NCBI GenBank assembly: GCA_964528795.1
Contig: CAZGUY010000002.1
Coordinates: forward strand, 1-48,812
DNA: 48,812 bases
Direction of reading: 5' to 3'
DNA from: an uncultured Gammaproteobacteria bacterium
GTDB lineage: Bacteria; Patescibacteriota; Patescibacteriia; UBA2591; UBA6264
A program made the translations under genes and the position numbers. Shown here in pieces: positions 1,705 to 21,004 of this stretch (positions are counted from its first letter, which is position 1; every line of letters starts with the position of its first letter). The notes under the pieces are model-generated. The model saw only the letters and a list, made by a program, of their open reading frames with translations. It did no database searches and had not been told where the DNA came from.

Positions 1705-1844
1705 AATTTTTTTTATATTCCATATCTGAATTATATATTAGCCAAAGTTAAATATCAAGCTAAGTTTATATAAAAGGCGAACGTTTTGAATGAAAGTGGA
1801 TAGCGGTCAAATCGTCGAATAGTAATTAGATTGGTTGAATCTTT

Positions 1845-1887
1845 AAGGTTCGCTTTTGTGAACCTTTTGTGAACCCTTAAGGTTCAC
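1845..1887. repeat. Two GC-richer hairpins related to the modular element (AAGGTTC-N8-GAACCTT; GTGAACC-N5-GGTTCAC)
   Basis: Perfect 7-bp stems sharing the AAGGTT/GAACC words of module A. They lie 3' of minus-strand gene 1996..2784. Confidence 0.6.
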
Positions 1888-1995
1888 AGGTAGTTTATTT
1901 TCGTGCTAATTTATATATGTTATATGTTTATTTACAATGATTATTGTAAAATAATACAATAAAGTTGTTTTAGTAAAAGTGGTTATCAGTTTTTA

Positions 1996-2784
1996 TTAAT
2001 AAGCACTTACTTTAATAATAGAGTGGATCTTTCTATTTGTGGCTAATATTCCATTTTTGTTTTTTAATTGTTTTCTATTGTAAATATATTTTTGTCCATT
2101 AAGGTCAGTTAATTTACCTCCTGCTTGTTCAAGAATGATTTGGGGAGCACATATGTCCCATTGACCAGTTTTATTAGAAAGACTTATATATCCTTCAGCT
2201 TTACCTTCTACTATTTTACCTATTTTAACTCCTACACTACCAGTAGGGGTTATTTTTTTAACTTTATTATCTTGTAATACTTTTTTGGTTTTTTTATCTA
2301 AGTGGCTTCTACTAACAACAAAGTGTGACTTAGAAAGATCTGATATATTAGAAACTGTAAGTTTTTTAGGTTTTTGTTTGCCTTTTTTTAAATAAGTGCC
2401 TTGATTTTCCCTTGCAAAGTATAGTTTATCTTTAGTGGGTTGGTAAACTATTCCAAGGATAGGTCTTTTGTCCTTTACTAGTCCTATCATAATAGAGAAT
2501 TGGCCTGTTTTATCTAAAAGGTCATTAGTACCATCTAGGGGATCTATTATCCATACCTTTTCTTTATTTAAACGAGCCTTATTATCATCTTTTTCTTCTG
2601 ATAAAATACCGTAATTGAATTTTTTTAATTTTGAAAGAATTATCTTTTCAGAGATTAGGTCAGCTTCGGTAACAGGGGAGGTATCTTTTTTATAAAAAGT
2701 TTTGTAATCTTTTTGATATATTTTTAAGATTTTTTTACCAGCCTTCTTTATTGCCTTAATAGCTGTTTTAAGTTCTTTGTCCAT
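1996..2784 (-). CDS. cysQ: Inositol monophosphatase family protein, CysQ-like 3'(2'),5'-bisphosphate nucleotidase
   Basis: 262 aa. Motifs SPVTEAD, LSEE, WIIDPLDGT, VVSRSH and WDICA are colinear with my memory of E. coli CysQ. The symbol is tentative. Confidence 0.7.
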   Translation of the reverse strand: MDKELKTAIKAIKKAGKKILKIYQKDYKTFYKKDTSPVTEADLISEKIILSKLKKFNYGILSEEKDDNKARLNKEKVWIIDPLDGTNDLLDKTGQFSIMIGLVKDKRPILGIVYQPTKDKLYFARENQGTYLKKGKQKPKKLTVSNISDLSKSHFVVSRSHLDKKTKKVLQDNKVKKITPTGSVGVKIGKIVEGKAEGYISLSNKTGQWDICAPQIILEQAGGKLTDLNGQKYIYNRKQLKNKNGILATNRKIHSIIKVSAY

Positions 2785-2845
2785 TATGTTTTGAAATAAA
2801 AGATAAATTTTAAAGTATATAGATATTTTTAGTATTGATTGGCTA

Positions 2846-2908
2846 CTAAATACATATTCTCCGATATTTTGTATTTGTCAAATAACTTTTCTACAATTAA
2901 ACAATAAA
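2846..2908 (-). promoter_or_regulatory. 63-bp repeated promoter-like module, copy 1 (TTGACA at 2876-2881 on minus strand)
   Basis: About 90% identical to 5874-5936. It contains TTGACA with an A/T-rich -10-like hexamer 16-17 nt downstream and sits upstream of minus-strand gene 1996..2784. Confidence 0.45.
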
Positions 2909-2943
2909 AAGCAAGAATTTAATAAGAACCTCATTTGTGAATC

Positions 2944-3018
2944 CTTAAGGTTAACAGTCTTCGGTTAACCTCCTAACAGGTCGCACCTGCGAGGGGGTAG
3001 GGTGGTTTGACCGCCCTA
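2944..3018. repeat. GC-rich modular hairpin element, copy 2 (modules A-B-D)
   Basis: Stems AGGTTAAC-N8-GTTAACCT (2948-2971), CAGGT-CGC-ACCTG, and TAGGGTGGT-TTG-ACCGCCCTA (2998-3018). Located immediately 3' of gene 3037..4383. Confidence 0.75.
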
Positions 3019-3036
3019 TTGTATTGTATAATATGC

Positions 3037-4383
3037 TTAATTTTTAATAATTTCCCAATGTCCCCCTTTTTTAGAGCCAACCCGCTTAATTTTTTTTGCT
3101 CTTTTTAATTTGCGGATATTTTTTTCTATACCTCTTTGGGTGATATTTATTTTTTGTGCCATTTGCTCAGTGGTTATAGATGGATTTTCTTTTATTAGGC
3201 GTATAATTTTTTCCGAACTTTTTTCCGAACTTTTTTCCGAACTTTTTTCTCTATCTTCAATGCTTTTTTTTGCTAAGTCAGGACGTTTAAAAGATATGCT
3301 AAACCAATTTTTATCAGCTTTTATATTAGGAGAGGGGAGTTTATATGAAGACATTGCATTTTTAATTCTTAATAAACCAGAGCCTATCTTTTCTACTAAA
3401 TCCATCCTTTGCATTAAGCCAAAGAGTAAGGGGTTTCTTGAAATACTTCTGTTGTATAAATCTTTTACTTCTAAGTCACCTAAAAGACCACCTGGGTTTG
3501 TAATTTCAACTCTATTTTTAAAAACATCTATTTGAATATGAGCTGTAGAAAAATAATCTCTATGAGCTATAGCGTTTAAAATAGCTTCTCTTAGGGCTTG
3601 TTCTGGCAATTCTAATTTTTCTTCTCTGGGGCCTCCTTTTATAATGTACTCTGTATTAAGCTTAGAGGACAAAAATTGCATAGCATTTTTATAATTGGAA
3701 TAAATATCTGATTTAAATTCTTTTCTGTCTAAAATTTTATACTTATCTTTTCCTTGGTACAAAACACAAGTTATAGTGGCGCTTATAAAAAACTTTGTTA
3801 TATCATTTGAAAAAAGCAAGATCCCTGCATTTTTCATTTGATTGTTTTTTATTAATCTCAAATTTTTTAAAAGTTCTATTTTATTTAAGTTGTCAGTTGC
3901 ATTTATATTATTTAAAAACTGTTTAAATTTTTCTTGAGATAGATCAGTTTTTAAATTAAACTCTTTATTTAGCATTTCATCAAATCTTATTAGGTTTTCT
4001 CTTTTAAATAGCTGTTTTACTTCATCTGTTTTTAGCTTTTGGGAATTAGCACCTTGTCTTTGATAAAAAGTTCCTCCTAAAGAATAGGGTCGTTTTTCTC
4101 CCGTGGGTATTTCTACAATAATAATATTATTATGAGAAGAAACTGAAACTTTTAAAGAAGGATCTATATTTCTGGCATAATTTTGAATTTTTGACCCTAA
4201 AGAATTAGTGTCCTTAATGCCTTTTATTTTTCCTAAGTCGTTTACACCTAAAAGTATTTTTCCACCGTTACTATTAGCAAAAGCACAGATATCTTTACCA
4301 ATAGAGTCGCTTAAGGATTTTTTAAACTCTAAATTATATCCTTCTCCTTGTTTAATTAAAGCTTTTATTTTTTTAGTGCCCAT
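3037..4383 (-). CDS. AlbA_2 (Schlafen-like) + HATPase_c_4-like + C-terminal wHTH putative DNA-binding protein/regulator
   Basis: 448 aa. Motifs AFANSNGGKILLGV, REAILNAIAHRDY and VEITNPGGL, plus the C-terminal HTH ITTEQMAQKINITQRGIEKNIRKLK. Confidence 0.8.
   Translation of the reverse strand: MGTKKIKALIKQGEGYNLEFKKSLSDSIGKDICAFANSNGGKILLGVNDLGKIKGIKDTNSLGSKIQNYARNIDPSLKVSVSSHNNIIIVEIPTGEKRPYSLGGTFYQRQGANSQKLKTDEVKQLFKRENLIRFDEMLNKEFNLKTDLSQEKFKQFLNNINATDNLNKIELLKNLRLIKNNQMKNAGILLFSNDITKFFISATITCVLYQGKDKYKILDRKEFKSDIYSNYKNAMQFLSSKLNTEYIIKGGPREEKLELPEQALREAILNAIAHRDYFSTAHIQIDVFKNRVEITNPGGLLGDLEVKDLYNRSISRNPLLFGLMQRMDLVEKIGSGLLRIKNAMSSYKLPSPNIKADKNWFSISFKRPDLAKKSIEDREKSSEKSSEKSSEKIIRLIKENPSITTEQMAQKINITQRGIEKNIRKLKRAKKIKRVGSKKGGHWEIIKN
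3207..3242. repeat. 12-nt tandem repeat (TTTTTTCCGAAC x3) inside CDS 3037..4383
   Basis: Read directly. It encodes the SEKSSEKSSEKSSEK linker between the ATPase-like and HTH parts. Confidence 0.9.
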
Positions 4384-4407
4384 ATTATATTTTTAATAAA
4401 AGGGAGG

Positions 4408-4483
4408 TTACCAATCTTTTACTTTCTTTTTAGTTTTCTTTTTTAGCTTTCTGTAAAACTTTTTAGCTGTATCTTCAAATTCA
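4408..4483 (-). pseudogene. Truncated 3'-terminal fragment (about 25 codons) of the excisionase-family HTH gene 5940..6185
   Basis: 76 nt nearly identical to 5940-6015, the stop codon plus the ...EFEDTAKKFYRKLKKKTKEKVKDW tail. Similarity ends abruptly at 4483 and there is no start codon. Confidence 0.8.
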
Positions 4484-4521
4484 TAGAGTCAACTTAAATA
4501 AATGAAGTAATTCCTCTCCTT

Positions 4522-4613
4522 GTGCACGCTTAAGGTGCACAACCACTGCCAGGTCGCACCTGGCAACCAGGTTGAACCTGGTCTGTTATTGGGGAGATCG
4601 AATCTCCCTATGG
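4522..4613. repeat. GC-rich modular hairpin element, copy 3
   Basis: Stems GTGCAC-N7-GTGCAC (4522-4540), CCAGGT-CGC-ACCTGG (4549-4563), CCAGGT-TGA-ACCTGG (4567-4581) and GGGAGAT-CGA-ATCTCCC (4592-4608) followed by TATGG. Located 3' of gene 4632..5843. Confidence 0.75.
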
Positions 4614-4631
4614 CTCTTTCATGGTATAGAT

Positions 4632-5843
4632 TTAAAGTTCCCAAATTTCTTTTATTGGATATTTGATATTTAATTTATCTTTGTTAATATCTGAGGAAAC
4701 AATTGAGAGCTGAATATTCGGGTATTCTTTTTGAAATTTTTTATAGGAAGATTTTTTAATGCTTTTAGGGTTACTTTTAACTTCAAAAGCCTTTTTATTG
4801 TTCACAACAAAATCTATTTCTTTTTGGTCGCTTGTTCGCCAAAATTTTATTTTATCTTTATGATATTTTTCTAAAAGCTGTCTAAAGCTAGCATTTTCTA
4901 ATATTTTTCCTTTATCTTGTCTTTTTGTTAAGGGTTTAAAGTTAGAAACAAAAAAGTTTCTTAGCCCCAGGTCTGAAAAGTATACTTTGGGCATTTTAGT
5001 TAATTCTTTTCTTATATTACTGTGAAATGGTTTTACAATATTAATGTGAAATGATTTTTGCATTATATACAGATAATTATCAATTAATGTTTTTGAAACA
5101 TCTAAAGTATTTGATAGTTCAGAAGCATTAACTAAGTTGCCCGTCTGGGCGGCTAAAATTTTAAATAGTTTGTAAAAAACTTCATCTTGTTTAATATTAG
5201 ATTCATAAACATCTTTTTTAATATAGGAATATGCAATATCTCTTAAAATGTCTTTTTTTTGGTTAATAGGGGATAGTACTACACGAGGGTACCCTCCATA
5301 AATGAGATATTCTTGAAAATAAAAGGTGATTTTTTCTTTTTCAGATAAACTTAATTTATTGAAGTTTTTTTGAGCTAATTTATTTTTGTCTTTAAATCTT
5401 AGAAATTCTTTAAAAGATAGTGTTTTGACATTAAATATTTTTTTTCTGCCAACTAAAGAATCCTTAAATTTTTTATCCATATAAAAAGCAGAAGATCCAG
5501 ATGCTATGATTTTTATTTTTTTCTTATATTCGTCCCAAAAGTATTTTAAAAAATTTGTTGGATTATCTAAATATTGAATTTCATCAATAATAAGAAAGTT
5601 CTTTTCATTTAGATCAATAGTAAAAATTTTAAATAAATTTTTTGGAGACTTATTTAATAACTCAAGATAATCAGGGTCTTCAAGATTTAAAAAATAATTT
5701 GTTTTATCTTTTTTTTCTAAAAAGGACTGGAGCTGTTTGAGAATAGTTGTTTTACCTGCTTGTCTAGATCCTACTAAAAGCAAAATATCGTCATTATTAA
5801 AATATTTTTTAATTTTAATTGTTAAATCTCTTATTATACTCAT
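4632..5843 (-). CDS. AAA-family ATPase (AAA_14 + DUF4143-type architecture)
   Basis: 403 aa. Walker A GSRQAGKTT and Walker B-like LIIDEIQ. The C-terminal region is typical of DUF4143-containing ATP-binding proteins. Confidence 0.8.
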   Translation of the reverse strand: MSIIRDLTIKIKKYFNNDDILLLVGSRQAGKTTILKQLQSFLEKKDKTNYFLNLEDPDYLELLNKSPKNLFKIFTIDLNEKNFLIIDEIQYLDNPTNFLKYFWDEYKKKIKIIASGSSAFYMDKKFKDSLVGRKKIFNVKTLSFKEFLRFKDKNKLAQKNFNKLSLSEKEKITFYFQEYLIYGGYPRVVLSPINQKKDILRDIAYSYIKKDVYESNIKQDEVFYKLFKILAAQTGNLVNASELSNTLDVSKTLIDNYLYIMQKSFHINIVKPFHSNIRKELTKMPKVYFSDLGLRNFFVSNFKPLTKRQDKGKILENASFRQLLEKYHKDKIKFWRTSDQKEIDFVVNNKKAFEVKSNPKSIKKSSYKKFQKEYPNIQLSIVSSDINKDKLNIKYPIKEIWEL

Positions 5844-6318: not shown

Positions 6319-7203
6319 TTATAATATATCAAGTATTTTCTGAGCAGGGTCAAAATTATTTGGTTGTCTACATTGAGCCATTTTTTCTATAATCTTTTTT
6401 ACATCTGAAGGGATTTCTATATCTTTATTTTTCTTAAGAAGTTTTAATAAAAGCCAAGCTGCTTTATTCCTGCAAATAGTAGAATGTTTTTTTATAAGAG
6501 CATAAATGGATTTGGGTTTTAATTCTGATTTATTTGTAGGTATATTTGATAAAGCAATAGCAGCATTGTTTGAAACTCCATAGGATGGATCTTTTTCTAG
6601 AGTTCTTGATAATATTTTACTAGTTTCATGATATTTTTCTTTTGAGGCCCAGTTTAAAAGATGGGCTGCTTGTATTCTATTTTTTTCATTTTTATCATTT
6701 AAGACAATCTTTCTTAATGTATCATAGTATTTTTTCACATGCTTGGTAAGTTTTCTTTCATAGTGTTTTAAGTTCTTGTCTTTTTTTGATGCTACAGACT
6801 CTCTATCTTTTTTATTAAATTCTTTTTGCATTGCTTTTTGGTAAGCTTTAAATGATTGTTTTAATTCCTTGGGTAATTTAAAAGTTTTTGTAAATTTTTT
6901 GAATTTTTTCTTTCTTTTTTTAGGGACGAGATTTATATCACAATAAATTTGTTGTTTAGCAGTTACTTTCCCCCTTTCATGAACAGTGCGATATATAATT
7001 GAATCAAAATTAATTTCTTTTTTAGGAAATTTCTCTTTTAGTATTTTTTTAGCCCCTTTTTTGAATTTGTCTTCTTTTTTATAAAATTTGTCTAAAGTTA
7101 TTTTTTGCCCTTCTTTAAGGCCAATTTTTTTGAATATTTTATCTTCATCTATATTATTTGCGCCCCAAATATTGCCTTTATGAATAGTATATTTTTTTGT
7201 CAT
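6319..7203 (-). CDS. Hypothetical protein with C-terminal HEAT/armadillo-like repeats (paralogue of 8662..9528)
   Basis: 294 aa. The N-terminal 25 aa are identical to 8662..9528. The C-terminal helical repeats (RIQAAHLLNW..., NNAAIALSNI..., CRNKAAWLLLKLL) resemble HEAT repeats. Confidence 0.65.
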   Translation of the reverse strand: MTKKYTIHKGNIWGANNIDEDKIFKKIGLKEGQKITLDKFYKKEDKFKKGAKKILKEKFPKKEINFDSIIYRTVHERGKVTAKQQIYCDINLVPKKRKKKFKKFTKTFKLPKELKQSFKAYQKAMQKEFNKKDRESVASKKDKNLKHYERKLTKHVKKYYDTLRKIVLNDKNEKNRIQAAHLLNWASKEKYHETSKILSRTLEKDPSYGVSNNAAIALSNIPTNKSELKPKSIYALIKKHSTICRNKAAWLLLKLLKKNKDIEIPSDVKKIIEKMAQCRQPNNFDPAQKILDIL

Positions 7204-7279: not shown

Positions 7280-7308
7280 TTGACTTAATGATTTTATTAT
7301 GCTATTTT
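7280..7308 (+). promoter_or_regulatory. Putative promoter of the precursor gene (TTGACT-N17-TATTTT)
   Basis: -35 at 7280-7285 and a -10-like hexamer at 7303-7308, about 90 nt upstream of ATG 7397. Confidence 0.4.
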
Positions 7309-7396
7309 ATAGATAGTTAGTTCTTTAAATTGTTAGCAAGTAAGCCGGTATCTGCTAACTTTATTTAAACCGGATTTAAAAAAGGAGGTGGTGAAA

Positions 7397-7588
7397 ATGA
7401 GTAAAGCACCATTTATGGCTCGATTTGGAGAACACTATGATGGAGCATACCCTAGTAAAGGAAGTGGGGAGTATGATGGTGAAACGCAAATATACTGTCA
7501 AGACGAAAAAGAGCCCACTGTTTGCCCCACGCCTAGTGGTCCAAATGCCGACAAAGGTCATATAGATGACCAGAAAAGATGCGACTAA
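7397..7588 (+). CDS. Candidate graspetide (microviridin-like) RiPP precursor peptide, 63 aa
   Basis: GGAGG at 7384-7388, 8 nt before ATG 7397. The GTG at 7388 given in the ORF track lies inside the RBS. The leader APFMARF resembles the microviridin PFFARFL motif. The rest is rich in Ser/Thr/Lys and Asp/Glu and includes AYPSK..EYDGE. The gene lies directly upstream of an ATP-grasp gene. Confidence 0.7.
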   Translation: MSKAPFMARFGEHYDGAYPSKGSGEYDGETQIYCQDEKEPTVCPTPSGPNADKGHIDDQKRCD

Positions 7589-7598
7589 AAAAGTCAAT

Positions 7599-7634
7599 AG
7601 GTTGGACGGTGAAATAGCTGTCCAACCTCTTTTA
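7599..7634 (+). terminator. Intrinsic terminator/attenuator between precursor and ligase genes
   Basis: AGGTTGGAC (7599-7607) pairs with GTCCAACCT (7620-7628), followed by CTTTT. Confidence 0.6.
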
Positions 7635-7657
7635 AAAAGGAAAGAGGTGATTTAATT

Positions 7658-8632
7658 ATGAATGAAAAAATCATTTTAGTTGTTACTAGTAAATATGCTT
7701 CAGATGTTAATTCTGTAATAAAAGAATTGTATAAGATGGATGAAAAAGTAATAAGGCTTAATACTGAAGATTTTCCTAGTCAGATTGATTATAATTATAA
7801 ATCTAATGAAGAGAAAATGATTTTTAGCCTTCCCCATAATCGGATAGTATTACTTAAAGATATTAAATCTATTTTATATCGTAAAGAACAAGAACCTAAA
7901 ATTGATTCTGCAGTAAAAGAAGAATCATTAAGAGATTTTGCAAAGAGAGAAAGTAGGGTAGTGCTTAGAAGCTTTTATCAAAGTTTTAATGGGCTTTGGA
8001 TTAATCATCCTCTTAGAGTTAGAGCTGCTTCTCAGAAAATTTATCAACTACAAAAAGCTAAGGAGGTTGGTTTTAATATTCCTTCTACATTAGTAACAAA
8101 TCAACCAAAGGATTTGAAGGAATTTTATGATAAGCACAAGGAAACCGGTATAATAGTAAAGCCACTTAGTTTCCCTATAGCTGAAGGTCAGCAAGAATAT
8201 TATGCTTTCTCAACTGCACGAGTAACCGAGAAAGATATTGGCCATATGGAAGAAGTCCAATATTCTCCTACTCTTTTTCAGGAAGAGGTCCCTAAAAAGT
8301 ATGAATTAAGAATTACGGTTGTTGGTAATAAGGTCTTTCCCTGTAAAATTGATTCTCAAATATCTAGTAAAACAGAATTAGATTGGCGCTTTTTTGAGCC
8401 TGGTAAACCTGTTCCACATGAAGCAACTAGTATTCCATTAGAGATTGAAAAAAAGTGTGTAAAAATAGTAAAAAGTTTAGGATTGAAGTTTGGTGCTATT
8501 GATATGATATATACTCCTGATGAGAAATATGTTTTTTTGGAAATTAATCCTAGCGGAATGTGGGGATGGATAGAAGAACTTACTGGTTTGCCGATTTCAA
8601 AAGCTATAGCTCAGTTATTAGCCAACCACTAA
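7658..8632 (+). CDS. ATP-grasp ligase, MdnB/MdnC (graspetide macrocyclase)-like
   Basis: 324 aa, preceded by GAGGTG. The size and the motifs ELRITVVGNKVF, GAIDMIYTPDEKYVFLEINPSGMWGW and PISKAIAQLL match my recollection of microviridin-type ATP-grasp ligases of the RimK-like fold. Confidence 0.75.
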   Translation: MNEKIILVVTSKYASDVNSVIKELYKMDEKVIRLNTEDFPSQIDYNYKSNEEKMIFSLPHNRIVLLKDIKSILYRKEQEPKIDSAVKEESLRDFAKRESRVVLRSFYQSFNGLWINHPLRVRAASQKIYQLQKAKEVGFNIPSTLVTNQPKDLKEFYDKHKETGIIVKPLSFPIAEGQQEYYAFSTARVTEKDIGHMEEVQYSPTLFQEEVPKKYELRITVVGNKVFPCKIDSQISSKTELDWRFFEPGKPVPHEATSIPLEIEKKCVKIVKSLGLKFGAIDMIYTPDEKYVFLEINPSGMWGWIEELTGLPISKAIAQLLANH

Positions 8633-8663
8633 AATCCCTTGATTATAAATAATCAGGGGATTT
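8632..8663. terminator. Bidirectional hairpin between convergent genes
   Basis: AAATCCCTTGATTA / TAATCAGGGGATTT forms a stem of about 14 bp with one G-T pair and overlaps both stop codons. Confidence 0.6.
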
Positions 8664-9528
8664 ATTTTATTGTTTTAAGTAATTTATTAGCAGCTTCTCT
8701 GTGATTTGGCTGTCTACATTTAGACATTTTTTTTATAATCTTTTTTACATCTGAAGGGATTTCTATATTTTTATTTTGTTTAAAAAGTTTTAATAAGAGC
8801 CAAACTGCTTTATTTCTGCAAATACTGGAATTTATTTGAAATAAACTAAAAATGGGTTTAGGTTCTAGTTTTACCCCTTGCTGGTTTAATTGTAATAGAG
8901 AAAAGGCTGCATTGCTTAATGTCCAATGATCAAGCTCTGTATTTAATGATTTGAATAAAAGTTTTTTTGTTTGAGATAATTTTTCTTTTGGAACCCATTG
9001 TAAAAGTAGGGCTGCCTTTGCTCGTTTGTTGTTGTCTTTGTCATTTAAAAGAATTTGTTTTATTGTAGAAAAGTTTTTCTTAATGTGGTTTTCAAACCTT
9101 TTTTGAATTTTTTCTAAAGTTTTAGAAGAAATTTTTTTATTATTTTGTGTTTTCTTTCTTAATATTTGATAATAGTCCTGTAGGGTTATTTTTATTTCAT
9201 TGGGAAAAACAATATCTTTTTTAAATTCTTTTCTATCTTTAGGTTTTGGGTTTATATTTATATCGCAATAAATTTCATTTTGAATGATCTTATCATCTAT
9301 TTTTTGTTTGCCATGATAAAAAAGTGGGCTAAAGATAAATTTCTTTTTAGGTAGTTTATTTTGTAAAATTTCTCTAATTTTATCTTGCCATTTGTATCTT
9401 TTTTTACTAAATTCATCCAAGGTCATTTTCTGTCCCTCTTTCAAGCCAATTTGTTTAAATATTTTATCTTCGTCTATATTATTTGCCCCCCAAATGTTAC
9501 CTTTATGAATAGTATATTTTTTTGTCAT
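8662..9528 (-). CDS. Hypothetical protein with C-terminal HEAT-like repeats (paralogue of 6319..7203)
   Basis: 288 aa. It shares the first 25 aa, the 5' flank and the C-terminal block ICRNKA(A/V)WLLLKL...IEIPSDVKKII with its paralogue. The central part is diverged. Confidence 0.65.
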   Translation of the reverse strand: MTKKYTIHKGNIWGANNIDEDKIFKQIGLKEGQKMTLDEFSKKRYKWQDKIREILQNKLPKKKFIFSPLFYHGKQKIDDKIIQNEIYCDININPKPKDRKEFKKDIVFPNEIKITLQDYYQILRKKTQNNKKISSKTLEKIQKRFENHIKKNFSTIKQILLNDKDNNKRAKAALLLQWVPKEKLSQTKKLLFKSLNTELDHWTLSNAAFSLLQLNQQGVKLEPKPIFSLFQINSSICRNKAVWLLLKLFKQNKNIEIPSDVKKIIKKMSKCRQPNHREAANKLLKTIK

Positions 9529-9603: not shown

Positions 9604-10641
9604 TTAATGATATATTTTTATATTACTTTTAGTTATTTCCCAGTTTCCTACTTGAGGTGAGCCTCCTTTAATTTTCTTTTTTTCTTTATATTCTTTTATA
9701 TTCTTTCTTGTTTTTTTAACTTGTGTTACAAAATGTTTAGCTAATTTTTTAGTTGATCCTTCTCTAGCTTTGGCGATAGCAGAACAATAAGCTTGGTGGT
9801 TTTGATTAAAGAATATAACCGGCATAAACCCCTTTTCGTTTAAGAGGGCATTTAAAAGAATTCTACCCACCCTACCATTACCATCTTGAAAGGGATGAAT
9901 TGCCTCAAATCGCCAATGGAATTCTAAAGCTAAAATAGGGGGGTATACATTTTCCTTTTTATTCGTTTTAAGTGTTTGAAGTAGTTGTTTCATTTCTTTG
10001 CTTACTTTGTCAGGAGAGGTAGTAGTAGCTATTTTACCAGTCATATTATTGCCAGCAATAATGTTTTGTTTTTTGTATTGGCCAGCTTCTATCGGTTTTA
10101 AATCATGAAAAAGTATTTTATGTATTTTTTTAATAGTTTTTTGATTCCATTTCATATTGGGGGAGAAAGCAAAGTTTATAGCTTGAATAGAATTAATAAT
10201 TTCTTTGTCTATTCTTGTTTTAGGTTTTACTCTTTTTTTAGTTAAAATATTTTTTATATCTGGTTCTGCTACGTGTGAACCCTCAGCTCGATTTGAATTT
10301 AAAACAAAAAGCAAATAAAATAATTTTCTAAAAGTTTTAAATTCTTTTTTAAATAATTTATGTAAAAGACAAGTGTAATAAAAACGAGATTTTATAATAT
10401 GATTAATACCATGAGGTGGAAAATAGTTTTTAATATCTTTATTAATATTTTGGATAACAAAAGGAGAAATTTTTTCTTTAAAAAAAGAAAGCATTTCTTG
10501 CTTTAAATCTTTTTTAGGGGGGAGCTCTTTGCCAAGATAGTGAGATAAGTGTTTTTTCTCGTTATTTATAACACTTCTTAATACATATTGGAGGTAATAA
10601 TATTTTTTCCCTTTGACTTTTTTCTTTCTAATATATTTCAT
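9604..10641 (-). CDS. Fic-domain protein (AMPylase family) with intramolecular inhibitory motif
   Basis: 345 aa. Active-site motif HPFQDGNGRVGR (HxFx[DE]GNGRxxR). The upstream SNRAEG fits the [ST]xxxE[GN] inhibitory helix motif. Confidence 0.85.
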   Translation of the reverse strand: MKYIRKKKVKGKKYYYLQYVLRSVINNEKKHLSHYLGKELPPKKDLKQEMLSFFKEKISPFVIQNINKDIKNYFPPHGINHIIKSRFYYTCLLHKLFKKEFKTFRKLFYLLFVLNSNRAEGSHVAEPDIKNILTKKRVKPKTRIDKEIINSIQAINFAFSPNMKWNQKTIKKIHKILFHDLKPIEAGQYKKQNIIAGNNMTGKIATTTSPDKVSKEMKQLLQTLKTNKKENVYPPILALEFHWRFEAIHPFQDGNGRVGRILLNALLNEKGFMPVIFFNQNHQAYCSAIAKAREGSTKKLAKHFVTQVKKTRKNIKEYKEKKKIKGGSPQVGNWEITKSNIKIYH

Positions 10642-10764
10642 AATATATAGTTAGGCTAATAGAAATTGATTATTAGTTATTTTAAAAAAATTGTTATTTA
10701 TTATTTTCTTTATTTTTTTACCTTTATAAAGATAAATAATGTAATAAAAAGTTGGGCTAATGAA

Positions 10765-10793
10765 ATTCTAACATAACCTAATTTATCTGTCAA
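10765..10793 (-). promoter_or_regulatory. Putative promoter for Fic gene (TTGACA-N17-TAGAAT on minus strand)
   Basis: Reverse complement of 10788-10793 is TTGACA and of 10765-10770 is TAGAAT. Confidence 0.4.
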
Positions 10794-10828
10794 TATCGTT
10801 TTATTAATAATATATTAAAAGTTCATAG

Positions 10829-10950
10829 TAGGGCGATTGGATTGTCCTAACGTGTGAACTCTTAAGGTTAACTGTTTTTAATATCCTAACAGGTCGCAAT
10901 CTGTGAGGGGATGGGGGGGTGGACTCCGGGCGAGGGTTAGATCGTTCTAA
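10829..10950. repeat. GC-rich modular hairpin element, copy 6 (composite D-A-B-...-D)
   Basis: TAGGGCGAT-TGG-ATTGTCCTA (10829-10849), CTTAAGGTTAAC..ATCCTAAC, CAGGT-CGCA-ATCTG, a G-rich tract, and GAGGGTTAGATCGTTCTAAT. It is the most GC-rich spacer in the left part of the window. Confidence 0.7.
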
Positions 10951-10965
10951 TATGCCCTAATATAC

Positions 10966-10994
10966 TTGACAAAATTCAATTATCGTATTATATT
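10966..10994 (+). promoter_or_regulatory. Promoter TTGACA-N17-TATATT
   Basis: Consensus -35 at 10966-10971 and -10 at 10989-10994, 46 nt before ATG 11040. Confidence 0.6.
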
Positions 10995-11039
10995 TTAAAT
11001 ACTAGTTAATTTTAGTTTAACTTAAAAAGGAGGTAAAAA

Positions 11040-11297
11040 ATGGGAAAAAGTGCTAAGTACTGGAATCATAAAAGAAAAGGGTTTATTGATGGTAAGTTTG
11101 GCAATACCTATAATCCGCCAAATGGTGTTATTAATAAAGAGGCTTATAAGGAGGGCTTTAAAAGGGGACAAGCTTGGCTGAAAGGATATGAAGACGCCGT
11201 GGATGATTATAGGTTTGAGTTAAAACCTATAGACAATAAGGATAGTTATATGATTGGTTATCAAGCTGGGGCGGAAAAGGAAAGAGGACTTAGATAG
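11040..11297 (+). CDS. Small hypothetical protein (85 aa) with G[FY]xxG repeats; paralogue of 11565..11834
   Basis: AAAGGAGGT RBS. Shares GFI(D/H)GKFG(N/H)TY(N/D)PP, (K/R)GF, W(L/V)(K/L)GY and GYQAG blocks with the downstream paralogue. Confidence 0.75.
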   Translation: MGKSAKYWNHKRKGFIDGKFGNTYNPPNGVINKEAYKEGFKRGQAWLKGYEDAVDDYRFELKPIDNKDSYMIGYQAGAEKERGLR

Positions 11298-11320
11298 TTT
11301 TGTTAAAAAAAATAATAATT

Positions 11321-11351
11321 AGGTCAAGTATAGAATGCTTGACCTCTTTTT
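11321..11351 (+). terminator. Intrinsic terminator
   Basis: AGGTCAAG-N9-CTTGACCT followed by CTTTTT. Confidence 0.7.
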
Positions 11352-11487
11352 ATAAATTTAATTTTTAATATTGATTAATTGTTAAGTGTGTTTTATCCAA
11401 CATTTTGTATTTATTAAACAATCCTACAACTGGATAAACTTATTCTCAATAGAGCACTTAAATCACCCTAATATATCTTAGTTGTGT

Positions 11488-11516
11488 TTGACAAAGCCTG
11501 ATTTTGATATTATACT
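11488..11516 (+). promoter_or_regulatory. Promoter TTGACA-N17-TATACT
   Basis: -35 at 11488-11493 and -10 at 11511-11516, 49 nt before ATG 11565. Confidence 0.6.
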
Positions 11517-11564
11517 CTTAAAGTAAGTTCATTTTAATTGAACTTTTAAAAAGGAGGTAAAACA

Positions 11565-11834
11565 ATGGAAAAAGAGATTGATCTTTTCAAGATTAAAAAG
11601 CAAGGATTTATTCATGGTAAATTTGGCCATACCTATGATCCGCCAGATAAGAGCAAAAAAGAAGCTTTGACTGCCTATAGAAGAGGATTTGATATAGGAT
11701 ATAGTTGGGTATTAGGTTATAAAGATGCTAAACGCGGTTTTGATTTTGACCCTGAATCAGCAGAAAGTGAAGATGGTTATATTGTTGGTTACCAGGCTGG
11801 TGAGGAAGAAGATCAGGATTGGGTTAGTTTATAA
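11565..11834 (+). CDS. Small hypothetical protein (89 aa), paralogue of 11040..11297
   Basis: AAAGGAGGT RBS and colinear conserved blocks with 11040..11297. The C-terminus is acidic. Confidence 0.75.
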   Translation: MEKEIDLFKIKKQGFIHGKFGHTYDPPDKSKKEALTAYRRGFDIGYSWVLGYKDAKRGFDFDPESAESEDGYIVGYQAGEEEDQDWVSL

Positions 11835-11852
11835 AAACTTAGATTAATTAAT

Positions 11853-11885
11853 GAGTCGAGTATAAAATTCTCGACTCTTTTTTTA
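11853..11885 (+). terminator. Intrinsic terminator
   Basis: GAGTCGAG-N9-CTCGACTC followed by an 8-T run. Confidence 0.75.
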
Positions 11886-11898
11886 TATAAATTTAGTT

Positions 11899-12672
11899 TT
11901 ATTTACTTTTTAATTTTCTAATAATAAAACCTGGAATCTTCCAAGGCTTTTTTATTCCTTTTCTTATTAAGTTTTTAAATCTTTTCTTTTTTATTTCTTT
12001 TTTAGGTAGTATAAATTGAATTGCTTTTTCTTTTTGTTTTTGGGTTGGGTTTAAATTTAGAAAATCCATTATTTTTTCAATCTGATCTCTTTTTTTATTG
12101 TTAAGTTTTTTAAAATCAATATCTAACCTTTTTAAATTAGGGTTTTGTTTAAAAAAGCTTTTAATTGAACTTTTATATTGATTTATTATTTTTTTAATTT
12201 CTTTATCTGACATTTCTTTATCTCCTCTGTCAGCTATTCTTCTTTGAATTGAATCAATTACATCTTTGTCTTTTCTATGACAGATTAAAAAGTAAGGGTT
12301 TTTAAGATAGGGGAGAAATAGATCAATTGTAAGAGTTGTTCTTGGATCTTTAAATCCCCAAAGGGTAGATTCTTTTTTATTTATTAAATTTTTAATTTGT
12401 TTTTGAAATTTATTTTTTTGTTTTATTATATTTTCTTTTTTAGGAGGATTTTTCCAATCTCCGTTTGCTTTTTTTAGTATTTTTTTATTTAGTTTTTGAA
12501 AATCCCAATCTTCATAATGACCTAATGGGTTTGATATGTCATCTCTTTTTGATTCTTGATCTATAGATCGTCCCATATCAACTCCTAAACGAGCTAATGC
12601 TCCAGCTACTATAGAAGTGCCGGTTTTATGCATTCCTAAGATTACAATTGTTTTGATATCCTTATTTTTCAT
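11899..12672 (-). CDS. Sulfotransferase family protein
   Basis: 257 aa. The N-terminal P-loop-like PAPS 5'-phosphosulfate-binding motif is ILGMHKTGTS. The gene overlaps the upstream flippase gene by 11 nt, indicating an operon. Confidence 0.65.
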   Translation of the reverse strand: MKNKDIKTIVILGMHKTGTSIVAGALARLGVDMGRSIDQESKRDDISNPLGHYEDWDFQKLNKKILKKANGDWKNPPKKENIIKQKNKFQKQIKNLINKKESTLWGFKDPRTTLTIDLFLPYLKNPYFLICHRKDKDVIDSIQRRIADRGDKEMSDKEIKKIINQYKSSIKSFFKQNPNLKRLDIDFKKLNNKKRDQIEKIMDFLNLNPTQKQKEKAIQFILPKKEIKKKRFKNLIRKGIKKPWKIPGFIIRKLKSK

Positions 12673-14173
12673 TGTTTTTCATATTTTTTAATTTATTTTT
12701 TACATCTTTTAAAATTAGTTTGTCATCTTTATTAAATGATTTAGTAAAGTAGAGTAGGGTAAGATAAACGATTCCTAAGATAAAGATATAAATTATTAAA
12801 TCATAAAGTCCTGGGGCTCCAAAAAAGTATTTTAAAAGATAAGCTACAAGAGCTGTAATTAAAGCAGCTAAAATATAGGTTAGATTGTTTTTTGTATAAG
12901 GTTGAATTTTATAAAAATAATATATTTCTATTAAACCAACTATACCACCAATTGTTATAGCAGATGAGGTAGCTATAGCTGCCCCTACAGGACCAAATTT
13001 TGGAATAAGTAGTATATCTAAACCTAAGTTAATTAAAAGCATTATAAGAGCATTTAAAAGGTTTAACTTTGTTTTAGCAAAAGCTTCTAAAGTCATTCCT
13101 TCTGGACCAAAAGCAGAATTTAAAAATTTACCTATTGCTAATATAGATAAGGCTAAAGGAAAAGCAAGATATTCTTTTGTAAAAAGAATAGTAATGATAC
13201 TTGTCCCAAAAAACAAAAGAATTATTAAATTAAAAGCATTCATATTTATAATCCATCTTGTAACCCAAGAATAAATAGCTTTAACTTGTTTAATTTGTTT
13301 TTTAGAAATAAGTTCTGAAATAACTGGTTTGTAAATTTTAGCAAAAGAGGTTAAAACTATACCTAAAATTACTATTAAGGAGACATAAATCTTATAAACT
13401 CCAACTTCAGCTGATGATCTATAAATTCCTAATATTATAAAATCAATTTGGCTAAGAAATATTAAAATAGTAGTACTAAGGGTTAAAGGCCATGAAAATT
13501 TTAATATTTTTTTAAAAGAAACACTTTCTGGTTTAATTTTTGATAATGGAGAAAGTATTTTCTTTTTAACAAACCAAAGACTAGCCATAGCTGTTATAAA
13601 AATAGCTAAAACATAAAGCTTACTCCAAGCTAAAAGCCCCCAACTTAAAACTAAAAGATAAATAGTGAATAAGATTTTTAAACCTGGCCTTATAATCTCT
13701 CTAAAATAAATTCTATACCGCAATTCTTTAAAACCAATAAAAGAACTTGAACTTAGTCTAATGATAGCCCAAAAGGGGAGAGCAAAACTTAAAACTTTTA
13801 AAACAGAAACTAAATCAGGATTATTAAAAACTTTAACAGCTAAAAAATTAGATAATAAAAAAAGTATTATTGAAACAATAATACTTGAAATAATACCAAA
13901 CTTATAAATGGATTTTATTAAAGTTTTAGTTTTTCCTTTTTCACCTTTGCCATTAAAGTAGGGAATAAAGCGTTCTAGGGCCTTATGAGTACCTAAAAGA
14001 ACAAAAATTAAACAAAAAGTAACAATGGTATAGCCAAGAGTAAAAGTACCAAAGTCTTTTGGTATTAAAATTCTTGTTATAAGGATTAACCATACATAGG
14101 ATAAAATTTTTCCTAATACTTCGCCAGAAAAATTTATACCTGATTCTTTAACTATCTTTTTAAGATTATTCAT
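12662..14173 (-). CDS. Polysaccharide biosynthesis protein, Wzx/MOP-type flippase
   Basis: 503 aa, about 14 predicted hydrophobic helices, with the typical MOP-family organisation. It sits inside a glycosyltransferase operon. Confidence 0.75.
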   Translation of the reverse strand: MNNLKKIVKESGINFSGEVLGKILSYVWLILITRILIPKDFGTFTLGYTIVTFCLIFVLLGTHKALERFIPYFNGKGEKGKTKTLIKSIYKFGIISSIIVSIILFLLSNFLAVKVFNNPDLVSVLKVLSFALPFWAIIRLSSSSFIGFKELRYRIYFREIIRPGLKILFTIYLLVLSWGLLAWSKLYVLAIFITAMASLWFVKKKILSPLSKIKPESVSFKKILKFSWPLTLSTTILIFLSQIDFIILGIYRSSAEVGVYKIYVSLIVILGIVLTSFAKIYKPVISELISKKQIKQVKAIYSWVTRWIINMNAFNLIILLFFGTSIITILFTKEYLAFPLALSILAIGKFLNSAFGPEGMTLEAFAKTKLNLLNALIMLLINLGLDILLIPKFGPVGAAIATSSAITIGGIVGLIEIYYFYKIQPYTKNNLTYILAALITALVAYLLKYFFGAPGLYDLIIYIFILGIVYLTLLYFTKSFNKDDKLILKDVKNKLKNMKNNEK

Positions 14174-14261
14174 TTATGTAGAGAAGTTTAGCTTATTTCT
14201 TACATTATATCTTACTATGTCAGGTTAAAATGTCAATAAACAAAAACCCACAAGGTTTAGC

Positions 14262-15374: not shown

Positions 15375-15432
15375 GTTAAAGTGTTTAGTGATTTATATTC
15401 TTTTAAAATATTTTCAGTAAAAAGCGATTCTT

Positions 15433-16677: not shown

Positions 16678-16716
16678 TAATAAATTGTTTAATCTATGCT
16701 ATTTATCTTTATTTTT

Positions 16717-17640: not shown

Positions 17641-17741
17641 GTATATAGCTATTAAGTATAATTAATTATATCGTTTATATTGAAGTATTTGTATTCTTTC
17701 AGCTTTCCTTTAAGCTAGGTGTTTTAAATTCTTTAGCTTTT

Positions 17742-18629: not shown

Positions 18630-18766
18630 GTTTTTTATATTTTATAGTTATGATTCTAGCAAGCTTCTCTTTTATTTTATTTAATTTAAGGTTAAATGTC
18701 AATTAATTAAGGTAAAATTAATAATTTTTAGTTTAAGGTAAGAATAAATATGTTAAAATATAGAGT

Positions 18767-19090: not shown

Positions 19091-19095
19091 AACAA

Positions 19096-19122
19096 AAACC
19101 CGCAAGTTTAACTTACGGGTTT
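19096..19122 (-). terminator. Repeated terminator hairpin, copy a (AAACCCGCAAGT-TTA-ACTTACGGGTTT)
   Basis: 12-bp stem. The single mismatch is a G-U pair on the minus-strand transcript, which is followed by UUUUUGUUUU. Identical copies lie at 21171 and 23550. Confidence 0.75.
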
Positions 19123-19128
19123 AATTTT

Positions 19129-20881: not shown

Positions 20882-21004
20882 TATTTATTGACCTTTTTTG
20901 AATTTTTGTTATTTTAAAAATAATAATTAATATAATTCTAAATTTTATGCGTTTTAGATTTTTGATTCCAAGAACAGCCAATTGTTCTGATGGCTGTTGA
21001 ATAT

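What the first reader, a model, noticed from the sequence alone, without database searches (positions are those of the whole stretch)
7280..8663. Minimal graspetide (microviridin-like) RiPP cassette: PFxARF-leader precursor, leaky terminator, single ATP-grasp ligase
Seen: a 63-codon ORF starts at ATG 7397 with GGAGG 8 nt upstream. It encodes MSKAPFMARFGEHYDGAYPSKGSGEYDGETQIYCQDEKEPTVCPTPSGPNADKGHIDDQKRCD. A 9-bp GC hairpin plus T-run follows at 7599-7634, and 24 nt later a 324-aa ATP-grasp ORF with its own GAGGTG RBS begins. Established: microviridin-class graspetide precursors carry a PFFARFL leader helix that docks on the MdnB/MdnC ATP-grasp ligases, and a KYPSD-type core whose Thr/Ser/Lys side chains are ligated to Asp/Glu. 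Here the leader reads PFMARF. The downstream part has AYPSK..EYDGE plus a second Thr/Ser/Lys/Asp/Glu-rich stretch containing three Cys. The ligase size and C-terminal motifs (ELRITVVG, GAIDMIYTPDEKYVFLEINPSG) match my recollection of that family. Inference: the intergenic hairpin would give a high precursor:enzyme ratio. There is only one ligase, no acetyltransferase, and no adjacent exporter or protease. The putative core does not match the canonical TxKYPSDWEE pattern, so the ring topology could be new (possibly with disulfides), and the host looks like a reduced CPR-like genome.
Basis: partly seen in the sequence, partly recalled or inferred. Interest (0 to 1): 0.8.

Follow-up and report, generated by a model that had tools for sequence, protein, structure and literature searches.

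The report
CPR graspetide cassette with helical-repeat partner
This is a real two-gene cassette for a ring-crosslinked ribosomal peptide (a graspetide) of a type already predicted in candidate-phyla-radiation bacteria in 2022; what looks new is a conserved cysteine pair in the peptide and an orphan helical-repeat gene that always sits next to the cassette.

Summary
The 63-codon ORF (7397-7588), the intergenic stem-loop and the 324-aa ATP-grasp ORF (7658-8632) are all present.

The ligase is a graspetide maturase, not RimK or glutathione synthetase. Its NCBIfam matches to maturase models have E about 1e-70, against 1e-14 for RimK. The closest solved structure is MdnC.

The peptide is a genuine precursor. 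Relatives lie directly upstream of an MvdD-type ligase in all 10 loci examined and are under purifying selection. They share PFxxxF, YDxxxQ, TxxxT and a C-terminal Asp.

The core is C-terminal, PTVCPTPSG...IDDQKRCD.

The cassette is not a microviridin. It fails the core motif, the two-ligase rule and the equivalog cut-offs. It belongs to the CPR "Branch 1" graspetide loci of Makarova et al. 2022.

Three features seem new:
- a subclade with a conserved Cys pair;
- a convergent orphan HEAT-like gene in 5 of 5 subclade loci where the downstream sequence is available, duplicated on both sides of the cassette here;
- a positionally conserved intergenic stem-loop.

Verdict: new member of a known, chemically uncharacterised kind; moderate interest.

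The parts
7280..7308 (+). Promoter-like site TTGACT-17 nt-TATTTT (with TG) upstream of the precursor gene
   Evidence: It is a consensus match only: 5 sites were found in the region against 7.3 expected by chance, so this alone is weak.
7384..7388 (+). GGAGG ribosome-binding site of the precursor gene, 8 nt before the ATG
   Evidence: read directly from the sequence.
7397..7588 (+). Graspetide precursor gene, 63 aa: MSKAPFMARFGEHYDGAYPSKGSGEYDGETQIYCQDEKEPTVCPTPSGPNADKGHIDDQKRCD
   Evidence: Homologues lie upstream of ligase genes in 10 of 10 loci. A profile search of 1.84 billion proteins found 19 hits, and the short ones are precursors. pN/pS is 0.18 between relatives. GC is 44% against 28% for the window.
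7409..7426 (+). Leader motif 1, P5-F-M-A-R-F10 (PFxxxF, the 'Phhx(1,2)h' helix motif)
   Evidence: P5 and F6 are invariant in alignments A2, A3 and A6. It corresponds to the microviridin PFFARFL motif that docks on MdnC (PMC7823629; PMC8939145).
7472..7489 (+). Leader motif 2, Y26-D-G-E-T-Q31 (YDxxxQ)
   Evidence: Y26 and Q31 are invariant. The two-part PFxxxF...YDxxxQ leader was found next to related ligases in 22 of 89 loci scanned, across several phyla.
7517..7585 (+). Predicted core, T41-VCPT45-PS47-GPNADKGHI-D57D58-QKRC62-D63. Donors are T41, T45 and possibly S47; acceptors are D57, D58 and D63; the Cys pair is C43/C62.
   Evidence: T41, T45 and D63 are invariant across the family. T41, P44, I56, D57, D58 and D63 are invariant in the subclade, and Cys is at position 43 or 47 plus C62 in 7 of 8 members. 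In the core, pN is 0.04 against pS 0.64. It fits the Branch-1 signature TxxxTx(6-10)Dx(1-4)D.
7600..7633 (+). Intergenic stem-loop (10 bp) followed by UCUUUU; candidate attenuator or transcript-stabilising element
   Evidence: z = -5.4. A strong stem-loop is in the same position in 8 of 9 loci with an intergenic spacer. A U-run follows it in the window, L089, L092 and L093 only.
7625..7648 (+). Second hairpin, in which the U-run (CCUCUUU) pairs with the ligase ribosome-binding region (AAAGAGG)
   Evidence: The same arrangement is predicted in L089 and L093. Its effect on translation is inferred.
7658..8632 (+). Graspetide ATP-grasp ligase (MdnC/MvdD-like), 324 aa, with its own GAGGTG ribosome-binding site at 7644-7649
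   Evidence: Pfam PF21068, E = 5e-14. NCBIfam TIGR04187/04184/04185, E about 1e-70, against RimK at 1e-14. PDB sequence search: MdnC 5ig9, E = 2.7e-55. AF2 model pLDDT 94.7. The Foldseek top 32 hits are all graspetide ligases, with MdnC at TM 0.85.
8632..8663 (.). 14-bp hairpin between the convergent ligase and HEAT-like genes; terminator-like, and usable from both strands
8662..9528 (-). HEAT-like repeat protein B (288 aa), convergent with the ligase; a conserved neighbour of this cassette type
   Evidence: Homologues are convergent downstream of the ligase in L089, L092, L093 and L095. The AF2 model (pLDDT 78) shows an N-terminal alpha/beta domain plus helical repeats. There are only weak HEAT/alphaRep structural matches and a weak Pfam HEAT_2 match.
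6319..7203 (-). HEAT-like repeat protein A (294 aa), a paralogue of B, on the other side of the cassette
   Evidence: It is 46% identical to B (E = 1e-87). The gene ends are 80-88% identical at the DNA level and the middle is diverged. Pfam HEAT_2, E = 1.5e-4.

Best explanation
The region encodes a graspetide (omega-ester-crosslinked RiPP) biosynthetic cassette of the CPR/Patescibacteria 'Branch 1' type.

Proposed mechanism:
1. The 63-aa precursor has a two-part leader, a PFMARF helix plus a YDGETQ motif, which recruits and activates the single MdnC-like ATP-grasp ligase.
2. The ligase uses ATP to phosphorylate the side-chain carboxylates of D57, D58 and/or D63.
3. The hydroxyls of T41, T45 and possibly S47 attack, giving two or three macrolactone rings in the C-terminal core PTVCPTPSG...IDDQKRCD. 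No conserved Lys is present, so no lactam is expected.
4. C43 and C62 probably add a disulfide after export.
5. The stem-loop between the genes keeps precursor mRNA in excess over ligase mRNA and partly masks the ligase ribosome-binding site.
6. The leader is removed and the peptide exported by functions not encoded in the cassette.
7. The product is most likely a protease-inhibitor-like peptide.
8. The conserved convergent HEAT-like protein acts with the cassette as a binding, immunity or partner protein.

Shown here: gene identities, family placement, the conserved residues, and the synteny. Inferred: ring chemistry and connectivity, the disulfide, attenuation, bioactivity, and the role of the HEAT-like protein.
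For: Ligase:
- Graspetide maturase HMMs match at E = 3.6e-72 to 6.7e-70, against RimK at 1.5e-14 and glutathione synthase at 1.5e-8.
- The MvdD pre-ATP-grasp domain PF21068 is present.
- MdnC, MdnB, AMdnB and CdnC are the best PDB sequence hits.
- The AF2 model has pLDDT 94.7. Its 32 best structural matches are all graspetide ligases; RimK appears only from rank 33.
- The residues invariant across the 32 aligned ligases, including the D282/E295/N297 positions where I expect the Mg-binding residues, are all present in the window protein.

Precursor:
- Homologous small ORFs lie 13-108 nt upstream of the ligase in 10 of 10 loci. Four of these (L092-L095) were found from the peptide profile alone.
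- Invariant residues are P5, F6, Y26, Q31, T41, T45 and D63.
- pN/pS is 0.18 overall. In the core, pN is 0.04 against pS 0.64.

Family:
- P0005 (52% identical) is listed as 'Branch_1' in Makarova et al. 2022. Its precursor is their cluster6190, which aligns with the window peptide.

Stem-loop: z-scores are -3.4 to -7.2 in 8 of 9 loci.

HEAT-like neighbour: present in 5 of 5 subclade loci with downstream sequence available.

Chemistry and bioactivity precedent: microviridin, marinostatin and plesiocin (PMC7823629; PMC11626197).
Against: - No chemistry was tested. The ring count, the connectivity and the disulfide are read from conservation only.
- The ligase scores below the curated cut-off of every named NCBIfam maturase model, so it is not an equivalog of any characterised enzyme.
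- Of the MdnC residues that contact the leader Arg, only the Asp (window D193) is kept. E191 aligns with a Lys here, and the leader Arg itself is not conserved in relatives. Docking may therefore differ in detail.
- No leader peptidase or exporter is adjacent. The window peptide lacks the small-residue pair before 'PT' that relatives have.
- A U-run follows the stem-loop in only 4 loci, so termination is not a family-wide property.
- The HEAT-like gene is convergent and not co-transcribed, and has no detectable catalytic family.
Confidence: 0.85

Rival explanations
1. The cassette is a true microviridin or marinostatin (group 1) cluster. The 'AYPSK...EYDGE' stretch would be a degenerate KYPSD-type core that is cyclised as in microviridin.
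For: - The leader PFMARF resembles PFFARFL.
- MdnC is the closest solved structure.
- A single-ligase, ester-only relative of microviridin exists: marinostatin.
Against: - AYPSK is not conserved in any of 16 related precursors. EYDGETQ aligns with the invariant YDxxxQ leader motif, which lies N-terminal of the conserved core.
- There is no TxKxPSD motif.
- The MvdD and MvdC equivalog scores are 240 and 236 bits against cut-offs of 475 and 425.
- No MdnB partner, GNAT acetyltransferase or ABC transporter gene is adjacent.
Confidence: 0.04
2. The ATP-grasp protein is a primary-metabolism or protein-modifying ligase (RimK, glutathione synthetase or LysX-like), and the small ORF is a chance or unrelated ORF.
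For: Weak Pfam matches to GSH-S_ATP (4e-6) and RimK (1e-3). Some sources name relatives 'glutathione synthase/RimK-type ligase'.
Against: - The graspetide maturase models score about 55 orders of magnitude better in E-value.
- The structure search ranks all graspetide ligases ahead of RimK.
- The small ORF is conserved, linked to the ligase and under purifying selection.
Confidence: 0.02
3. The functional unit has three components. The HEAT-like protein would be an obligatory partner of the ligase (scaffold or activator, as MirC is for rosaritide), or the leader-processing or immunity component. The cassette would then not be 'minimal'.
For: - The gene is convergent downstream of the ligase in 5 of 5 subclade loci with sequence available. 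These loci span ligases only 42% identical, so the gene tracks the IDDExxCD core type.
- It is duplicated on both sides of the cassette in the window.
- The sister subclade has an unrelated Tiki/ChaN-like gene in the same place.
- Partner-dependent graspetide synthetases are now known (PMC13097080).
- The N-terminal domain has conserved His, Cys and Asp residues in the motifs YTxHxGNIWG and CDIN.
Against: - It is not co-transcribed with the ligase.
- No catalytic family or significant structural match was found.
- Only five loci are known, most on short contigs.
- Characterised relatives such as MdnC work without a partner.
Confidence: 0.3

Closest known systems
CPR 'Branch 1' graspetide loci of Makarova et al. 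2022 (Biol Direct 17:7), e.g. Parcubacteria GW2011_GWC1_45_9 ATP-grasp with precursor cluster6190
   Same: - The ligase is 52% identical (P0005), and P0005 is listed as Branch_1.
- The precursors are homologous: the same PFxAxF and YDExxQ leader motifs, TxxxT, and an acidic C-terminal tail ending in Asp.
- The precursor lies directly upstream of a single ligase.
- The host group is CPR.
- It fits the published signatures Phhx(1,2)h and TxxxTx(6-10)Dx(1-4)D.
   Different: - The window subclade has the core PTxCPTHSG..IDDExxCD with a conserved Cys pair.
- Its conserved neighbour is an orphan HEAT-like protein. The GW2011 locus instead has a Tiki/ChaN-like protein and two HExxH proteins.
- None of these loci has been characterised chemically.
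Microviridin pathway (MdnA precursor, MdnC ester ligase, MdnB amide ligase, MdnD acetyltransferase, MdnE transporter)
   Same: - The ligase fold and sequence are closest to MdnC (33-34% identity in the structural alignment, TM 0.85).
- The leader helix motif PFMARF resembles PFFARFL.
- As in known graspetides, nucleophiles precede acids in the core.
   Different: - There is no TxKxPSD core and no conserved Lys.
- There is one ligase instead of two, and no GNAT or ABC gene.
- The equivalog cut-offs are not reached.
- There is an extra YDxxxQ leader motif, and the core sits at the extreme C-terminus with Cys residues.
Marinostatin-type single-ligase, ester-only graspetides
   Same: A single ATP-grasp ligase, a PF-type leader, and only ester rings expected.
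   Different: The core motif and ring spacing differ, and the host phylum differs. This comparison rests on the review text, not on sequences tested here.
Rosaritide (partner-protein-dependent graspetide; Carter et al. 2026, PMC13097080)
   Same: A strictly co-occurring non-catalytic-looking protein sits next to a graspetide synthetase.
   Different: The rosaritide partner is a PpiC-like protein, and that paper shows it forms a catalytically active complex with the synthetase. Here the neighbour is a HEAT-like repeat protein, convergently transcribed, with an untested role.
RODEO graspetide group 43 (Microcoleus sp.)
   Same: The same two-part leader architecture, VPFTLSF...YDPETQ.
   Different: A longer core with different T/S/D spacing, a cyanobacterial host, and different neighbouring genes.

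Membership tests
Graspetide (ATP-grasp-modified RiPP) biosynthetic cluster | ATP-grasp ligase of the MvdD/MdnC type with the pre-ATP-grasp domain | tested here: met
   PF21068 at 52.8 bits, above its cut-off of 27. TIGR04187/04184/04185 at E about 1e-70. MdnC is the best PDB match by sequence and by fold.
Graspetide (ATP-grasp-modified RiPP) biosynthetic cluster | Adjacent small precursor with a conserved leader and a core in which Thr/Ser/Lys precede Asp/Glu | tested here: met
   The 63-aa ORF has leader motifs PFxxxF and YDxxxQ, and a core in which T41/T45 precede D57/D58/D63.
Graspetide (ATP-grasp-modified RiPP) biosynthetic cluster | Precursor and ligase co-occur in relatives | tested here: met
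   10 of 10 loci, four of them reached from the peptide profile alone.
Graspetide (ATP-grasp-modified RiPP) biosynthetic cluster | Side-chain macrolactone or macrolactam cross-links in the product | not testable with these tools
   This needs co-expression and mass spectrometry.
Microviridin class (graspetide group 1) | PFFARFL-type leader helix | tested here: met
   PFMARF matches 5 of the first 6 positions. P and F are invariant in relatives, but the Arg is not.
Microviridin class (graspetide group 1) | Core motif TxKxPSD(x)(D/E)(D/E) | tested here: not met
   The motif is absent from the peptide. 'AYPSK' is not conserved and lies in the leader spacer.
Microviridin class (graspetide group 1) | Ligase passes the MvdD or MvdC equivalog models | tested here: not met
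   239.8 bits against a cut-off of 475 (TIGR04184), and 235.7 bits against 425 (TIGR04185).
Microviridin class (graspetide group 1) | Two ligases (ester-forming MdnC plus amide-forming MdnB) | tested here: not met
   Only one ATP-grasp gene was found among the 41 of the 44 ORFs of at least 90 aa that were scanned. The three not scanned are two short ORFs nested inside larger genes and the last ORF, 47820-48722. No Lys is conserved in the core.
CPR 'Branch 1' graspetide loci (Makarova et al. 2022) | Ligase groups with Branch 1 ATP-grasp enzymes | tested here: met
   The Branch_1 member P0005 is 52% identical and is the fifth-ranked hit (fourth after the self-hit) of 610. The NJ tree places the window ligase in the sister clade to P0005's clade. 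The authors' own tree was not recomputed.
CPR 'Branch 1' graspetide loci (Makarova et al. 2022) | Leader motif Phhx(1,2)h within the first 30 residues | tested here: met
   P5-F-M-A-R-F10.
CPR 'Branch 1' graspetide loci (Makarova et al. 2022) | Core signature TxxxTx(6-10)Dx(1-4)D | tested here: met
   T41-x3-T45-x6-D52-x4-D57 matches literally. However, the acceptors conserved across the family are D57/D58 and D63, which gives TxxxTx11DDx4D.
RimK / glutathione synthetase / LysX primary-metabolism ATP-grasp ligases | Best match to, and passing the cut-off of, the family models | tested here: not met
   RimK family: 54 bits against a cut-off of 143. Glutathione synthase: 34 bits against 272. LysX: 30 bits against 276. 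RimK structures rank below all graspetide ligases.

The most novel reading that the evidence does not exclude
The Cys-pair subclade (core PTxCPTHSG..IDDExxCD-COOH) makes a graspetide of unprecedented topology: two or three nested Thr/Ser-Asp lactones reaching the C-terminal residue, locked by a disulfide. Its biosynthesis, self-protection or delivery depends on the orphan HEAT-like protein, which tracks this core type and is duplicated around the cassette here. In a CPR episymbiont, inside a defence-gene island, such a peptide could act on host or phage proteases rather than as a classical antibiotic.
Probability: 0.2. Interest if true: 0.7.

Novelty: new member of a known kind. Interest (0 to 1): 0.4.

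Why it matters
No graspetide from a CPR/Patescibacteria genome appears to have been characterised chemically. Makarova et al. 2022 explicitly flagged the role of these clusters in episymbiont-host relations as open.

This locus offers a compact, well-delimited test case: a 63-aa precursor, one ligase, and one conserved neighbour. It comes with a precise, falsifiable prediction of donor and acceptor residues, plus a candidate partner protein.

It does not change what is known about graspetide enzymology, and the cluster type itself is already in the literature.

Tried and rejected
- **Co-folding leader and ligase.** The only route was to translate 7397-8629 as one chain, since the two genes are in the same frame. 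No leader-ligase interface was therefore predicted.
- **Relatives of the HEAT-like protein.** The word-indexed search of 5.8 billion proteins found only the two window paralogues. Two JGI metagenome scans found nothing. PHROGs and PADLOC gave no hits. Foldseek gave only weak HEAT/alphaRep matches at E about 0.01. Relatives were found only by looking beside ligase genes.
- **HEAT-like versus Tiki-like homology.** This was tested and rejected.
- **A structured 5' UTR** (7312-7399) was rejected: z = 0.16.
- **Promoter.** The consensus match is no better than chance.
- **Placement in RODEO groups 27 or 42**, the groups said to hold candidate-phyla clusters, was rejected. Their representative leaders are different. 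The group number of this locus remains undetermined because Ramesh et al. 2021 is not held.
- **Host taxonomy.** The sample could not be identified, and no exact match was in the genome collection. 'CPR' rests on the relatives and on composition only.
- **Literature on natural disulfide-bearing graspetides.** The full-text search for 'graspetide' plus 'disulfide' listed 15 of 18 papers holding both words, but the two words rarely co-occurred more than once or twice and I opened none of them, so whether such a natural product is known is unchecked.
Full report
**1. Observation**

- GGAGG (7384-7388) lies 8 nt before ATG 7397. This opens a 63-codon ORF ending at TAA 7586-7588, with the quoted translation.
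- A 10-bp stem (7600-7609 pairing with 7618-7627, one G-U) is followed by TCTTTT.
- GAGGTG (7644-7649) lies 8 nt before ATG 7658 of a 324-aa ORF ending at 8632.

The 69-nt intergenic RNA folds at -23.8 kcal/mol, z = -5.4, with 0 of 200 shuffles as stable. It forms two hairpins. In the second, the U-run pairs with the ligase ribosome-binding region. A 14-bp hairpin at 8632-8663 closes the unit. The promoter-like TTGACT-17-TATTTT at 7280-7308 is not better than chance.

**2. The ligase**

- Pfam finds the MvdD pre-ATP-grasp domain (PF21068, 52.8 bits, cut-off 27).
- NCBIfam graspetide maturase models match end to end at E = 3.6e-72 (TIGR04187), 4e-71 (MvdD) and 6.7e-70 (MvdC). RimK matches at 1.5e-14 and glutathione synthase at 1.5e-8. 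All the maturase scores are below the curated cut-offs, so this is no named equivalog.
- The best solved relatives are MdnC (5ig9, E = 2.7e-55), MdnB, AMdnB and CdnC.
- An AlphaFold2 model built on 32 homologues has pLDDT 94.7. Its 32 best PDB matches are all graspetide ligases (MdnC TM 0.85, then AMdnB, CdnC, MdnB, PruB, PsnB). RimK appears only from rank 33.

Of the MdnC residues reported to hold the leader Arg (E191, D192, N195; PMC7823629), only the Asp is kept (window D193). E191 aligns with a Lys.

**3. The peptide**

Small ORFs upstream of the closest ligases (58-45% identical) are homologous to the window peptide.

A profile of nine precursors was searched against 1.84 billion representative proteins. 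It returned 19 hits, and the short ones are further precursors. I looked up five of the precursors found by the peptide profiles. Four lie 67-76 nt upstream of an MvdD-type ATP-grasp gene. The fifth sits on a contig that ends 140 nt after it. In all, 10 of 10 loci with enough sequence show the precursor-ligase pair.

Between two close relatives the ORF has pN/pS = 0.18. In the last 23 codons pS is 0.64 and pN is 0.04. The gene has 44% GC in a 28% GC window.

Invariant residues across the family are P5, F6, Y26, Q31, T41, T45 and the C-terminal D63.

This gives three parts:
- a leader helix motif PFxxxF;
- a second leader motif YDxxxQ;
- a C-terminal core.

The two-part leader also occurs next to related ligases in Uhrbacteria, Ryanbacteria, Saccharibacteria, Microgenomates, Acidobacteriota and Chloroflexus (22 of 89 loci with a strict pattern). 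It also occurs in RODEO group 43.

Neither is a KYPSD-like core.

**4. The core and the likely chemistry**

Eight precursors form a subclade with the window peptide. In it T41, P44, I56, D57, D58 and D63 are invariant, and position 45 is Thr or Ser. The consensus is PTxCPTHSG(x2-8)IDDExxCD-COOH.

No Lys is conserved, so only ester rings are expected: two or three lactones from T41, T45 and possibly S47 to D57, D58 and D63. This follows the known acyl-phosphate mechanism of MdnC-type enzymes (established knowledge; PMC7823629). The connectivity is inferred and could be nested.

A Cys sits at position 43 or 47, and another at 62, in 7 of 8 members. The N-terminal Cys shifts position while C62 stays fixed. 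This suggests a structural disulfide, but that is inference. C34 of the window peptide is not conserved.

**5. What is known**

Makarova et al. 2022 (PMC8939145) described two branches of ATP-grasp loci from CPR bacteria. For Branch 1 they reported:
- leaders with Phhx(1,2)h;
- cores with TxxxTx(6-10)Dx(1-4)D;
- associated TPR proteins, an uncharacterised 'cluster 23', and zincin and Tiki/TraB peptidases.

Their tables list the Parcubacteria GW2011_GWC1_45_9 ligase as Branch_1, with precursor cluster6190. That ligase is my P0005, 52% identical to the window ligase. That precursor is identical to the peptide I found in L002, which aligns with the window peptide.

The window cassette is therefore a new member of a published, still uncharacterised kind. 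It is not a microviridin: the core motif, the two-ligase rule and the equivalog cut-offs all fail.

The 2026 RODEO update lists 43 groups. Its representative candidate-phyla groups 27 and 42 have different leaders. I could not determine the group number of this locus.

**6. What seems new**

(a) The Cys-pair core type described above.

(b) A conserved third gene.
- The window cassette is flanked by two paralogous genes on the minus strand, 6319-7203 and 8662-9528. They are 46% identical as proteins. Their ends are 80-88% identical as DNA and their middles are diverged.
- A homologue is convergent downstream of the ligase in L089, L092, L093 and L095 (L095 is full length, 301 aa). Counting the window, that is 5 of 5 subclade loci with sequence there.
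- In a neighbour-joining tree, L095 and L094 fall outside the clade that unites the window group with the Tiki-associated group. The gene therefore tracks the core type rather than one ligase clade.
- The protein has an N-terminal alpha/beta domain with the conserved motifs YTxHxGNIWG and CDIN, plus HEAT-like repeats (AF2 pLDDT 78; weak HEAT_2 and alphaRep matches).
- No other relatives were found, and its motifs are absent from the held supplement of Makarova et al..
- The sister subclade (L002, L008, L090) has an unrelated Tiki/ChaN-like gene in the same place.
- Partner-dependent graspetide synthetases have recently been shown (PMC13097080). A partner, immunity or processing role is therefore plausible but untested.

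(c) The stem-loop between precursor and ligase is conserved in position, not in sequence, in 8 of 9 loci (z from -3.4 to -7.2). A U-run follows it in four. I read it as an attenuator or transcript-stabilising element, as in many RiPP operons. 'Leaky terminator' is plausible for the window but not shown.

**7. Context**

The window is chromosomal. It carries phosphoglycerate kinase, enolase, phosphoglycerate mutases, SecA and SecD.

The cassette sits in a stretch rich in defence-type genes:
- PDC-S01-type AAA_14/DUF4143 ATPase;
- two SoFic-like Fic proteins;
- AbiEi/AbiEii;
- Schlafen/AlbA_2 proteins.

No peptidase or exporter is adjacent. A HlyD-ABC-MacB set lies 16 kb away.

The host is inferred to be CPR from the relatives and the 28% GC. 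This was not shown directly.

**8. Verdict**

It is wrong on which residues form the core, and it overestimated novelty. Interest is moderate: this is a clean test case for the first CPR graspetide and for a possible new partner protein.

Noticed in passing
window 6319-7203 (-) and 8662-9528 (-): The two HEAT-like paralogues flanking the cassette have a mosaic pattern. The first ~170 nt and last ~200 nt of the genes are 80-88% identical at the DNA level, while the middle has diverged (46% protein identity overall). This suggests gene conversion at the ends or diversification of the middle.
   Followed up: partly
window 172-5843, 9604-10641, 19853-23475, 32376-33991: The cassette lies among defence-type genes: Schlafen/AlbA_2 proteins, a PADLOC PDC-S01-type AAA_14/DUF4143 ATPase (E = 2e-97), two SoFic/PDC-S04-like Fic proteins, an HATPase/DUF4325 protein and an AbiEi/AbiEii pair.
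   Followed up: partly
window 24300-28121 (+): A HlyD-like membrane-fusion protein, an ABC ATPase and a MacB/FtsX permease lie in a row. This is the only candidate peptide exporter in the window, 16 kb from the cassette.
   Followed up: no
window 11040-11297 (+) and 11565-11834 (+): Two tandem small paralogous ORFs (85 and 89 aa, sharing GFI(D/H)GKFG.TY(N/D)PP and GYQAG motifs) have no match in Pfam (first ORF) or PHROGs (both).
   Followed up: no
window 36546-38135 and 38139-39713 (+); 46127-47818 (+): Two cofactor-independent phosphoglycerate mutase paralogues lie in tandem. There is also a SecD protein carrying a PpiC-type rotamase domain.
   Followed up: no
L006 / L007 (contig NODE_5470, ranges 10251-19231 and 20032-29012): One metagenome contig carries the related precursor-ligase-Tiki-like locus twice, about 9.8 kb apart. 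Each copy has two radical SAM/SPASM genes divergent upstream, although that precursor has no Cys.
   Followed up: no
P0134, P0139, P0143, P0146 (hits of the precursor profile): The precursor profile also matches repeats in giant proteins of up to 3043 aa. In P0134 and P0139 the repeats read 'GSYDLKTGDWTGADLPAGATVTLTL', which looks like DUF11/Cna-B-type repeat strands. The second leader motif plus spacer of some precursors (G-x-YD-xxx-Q-x-W-x-G-A..AT.T.T) resembles these. Whether this is chance or shared ancestry is unknown.
   Followed up: partly
L002 1873-2616 and 2774-3517 (+); L091 2019-2441 (+): Related CPR loci carry other accessory genes: two HExxH (zincin-like) 247-aa paralogues upstream of the precursor in the Parcubacteria locus, and a DUF6624 protein overlapping the ligase stop in L091. 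DUF6624 was flagged in the 2026 RODEO survey as enriched in several graspetide groups.
   Followed up: no
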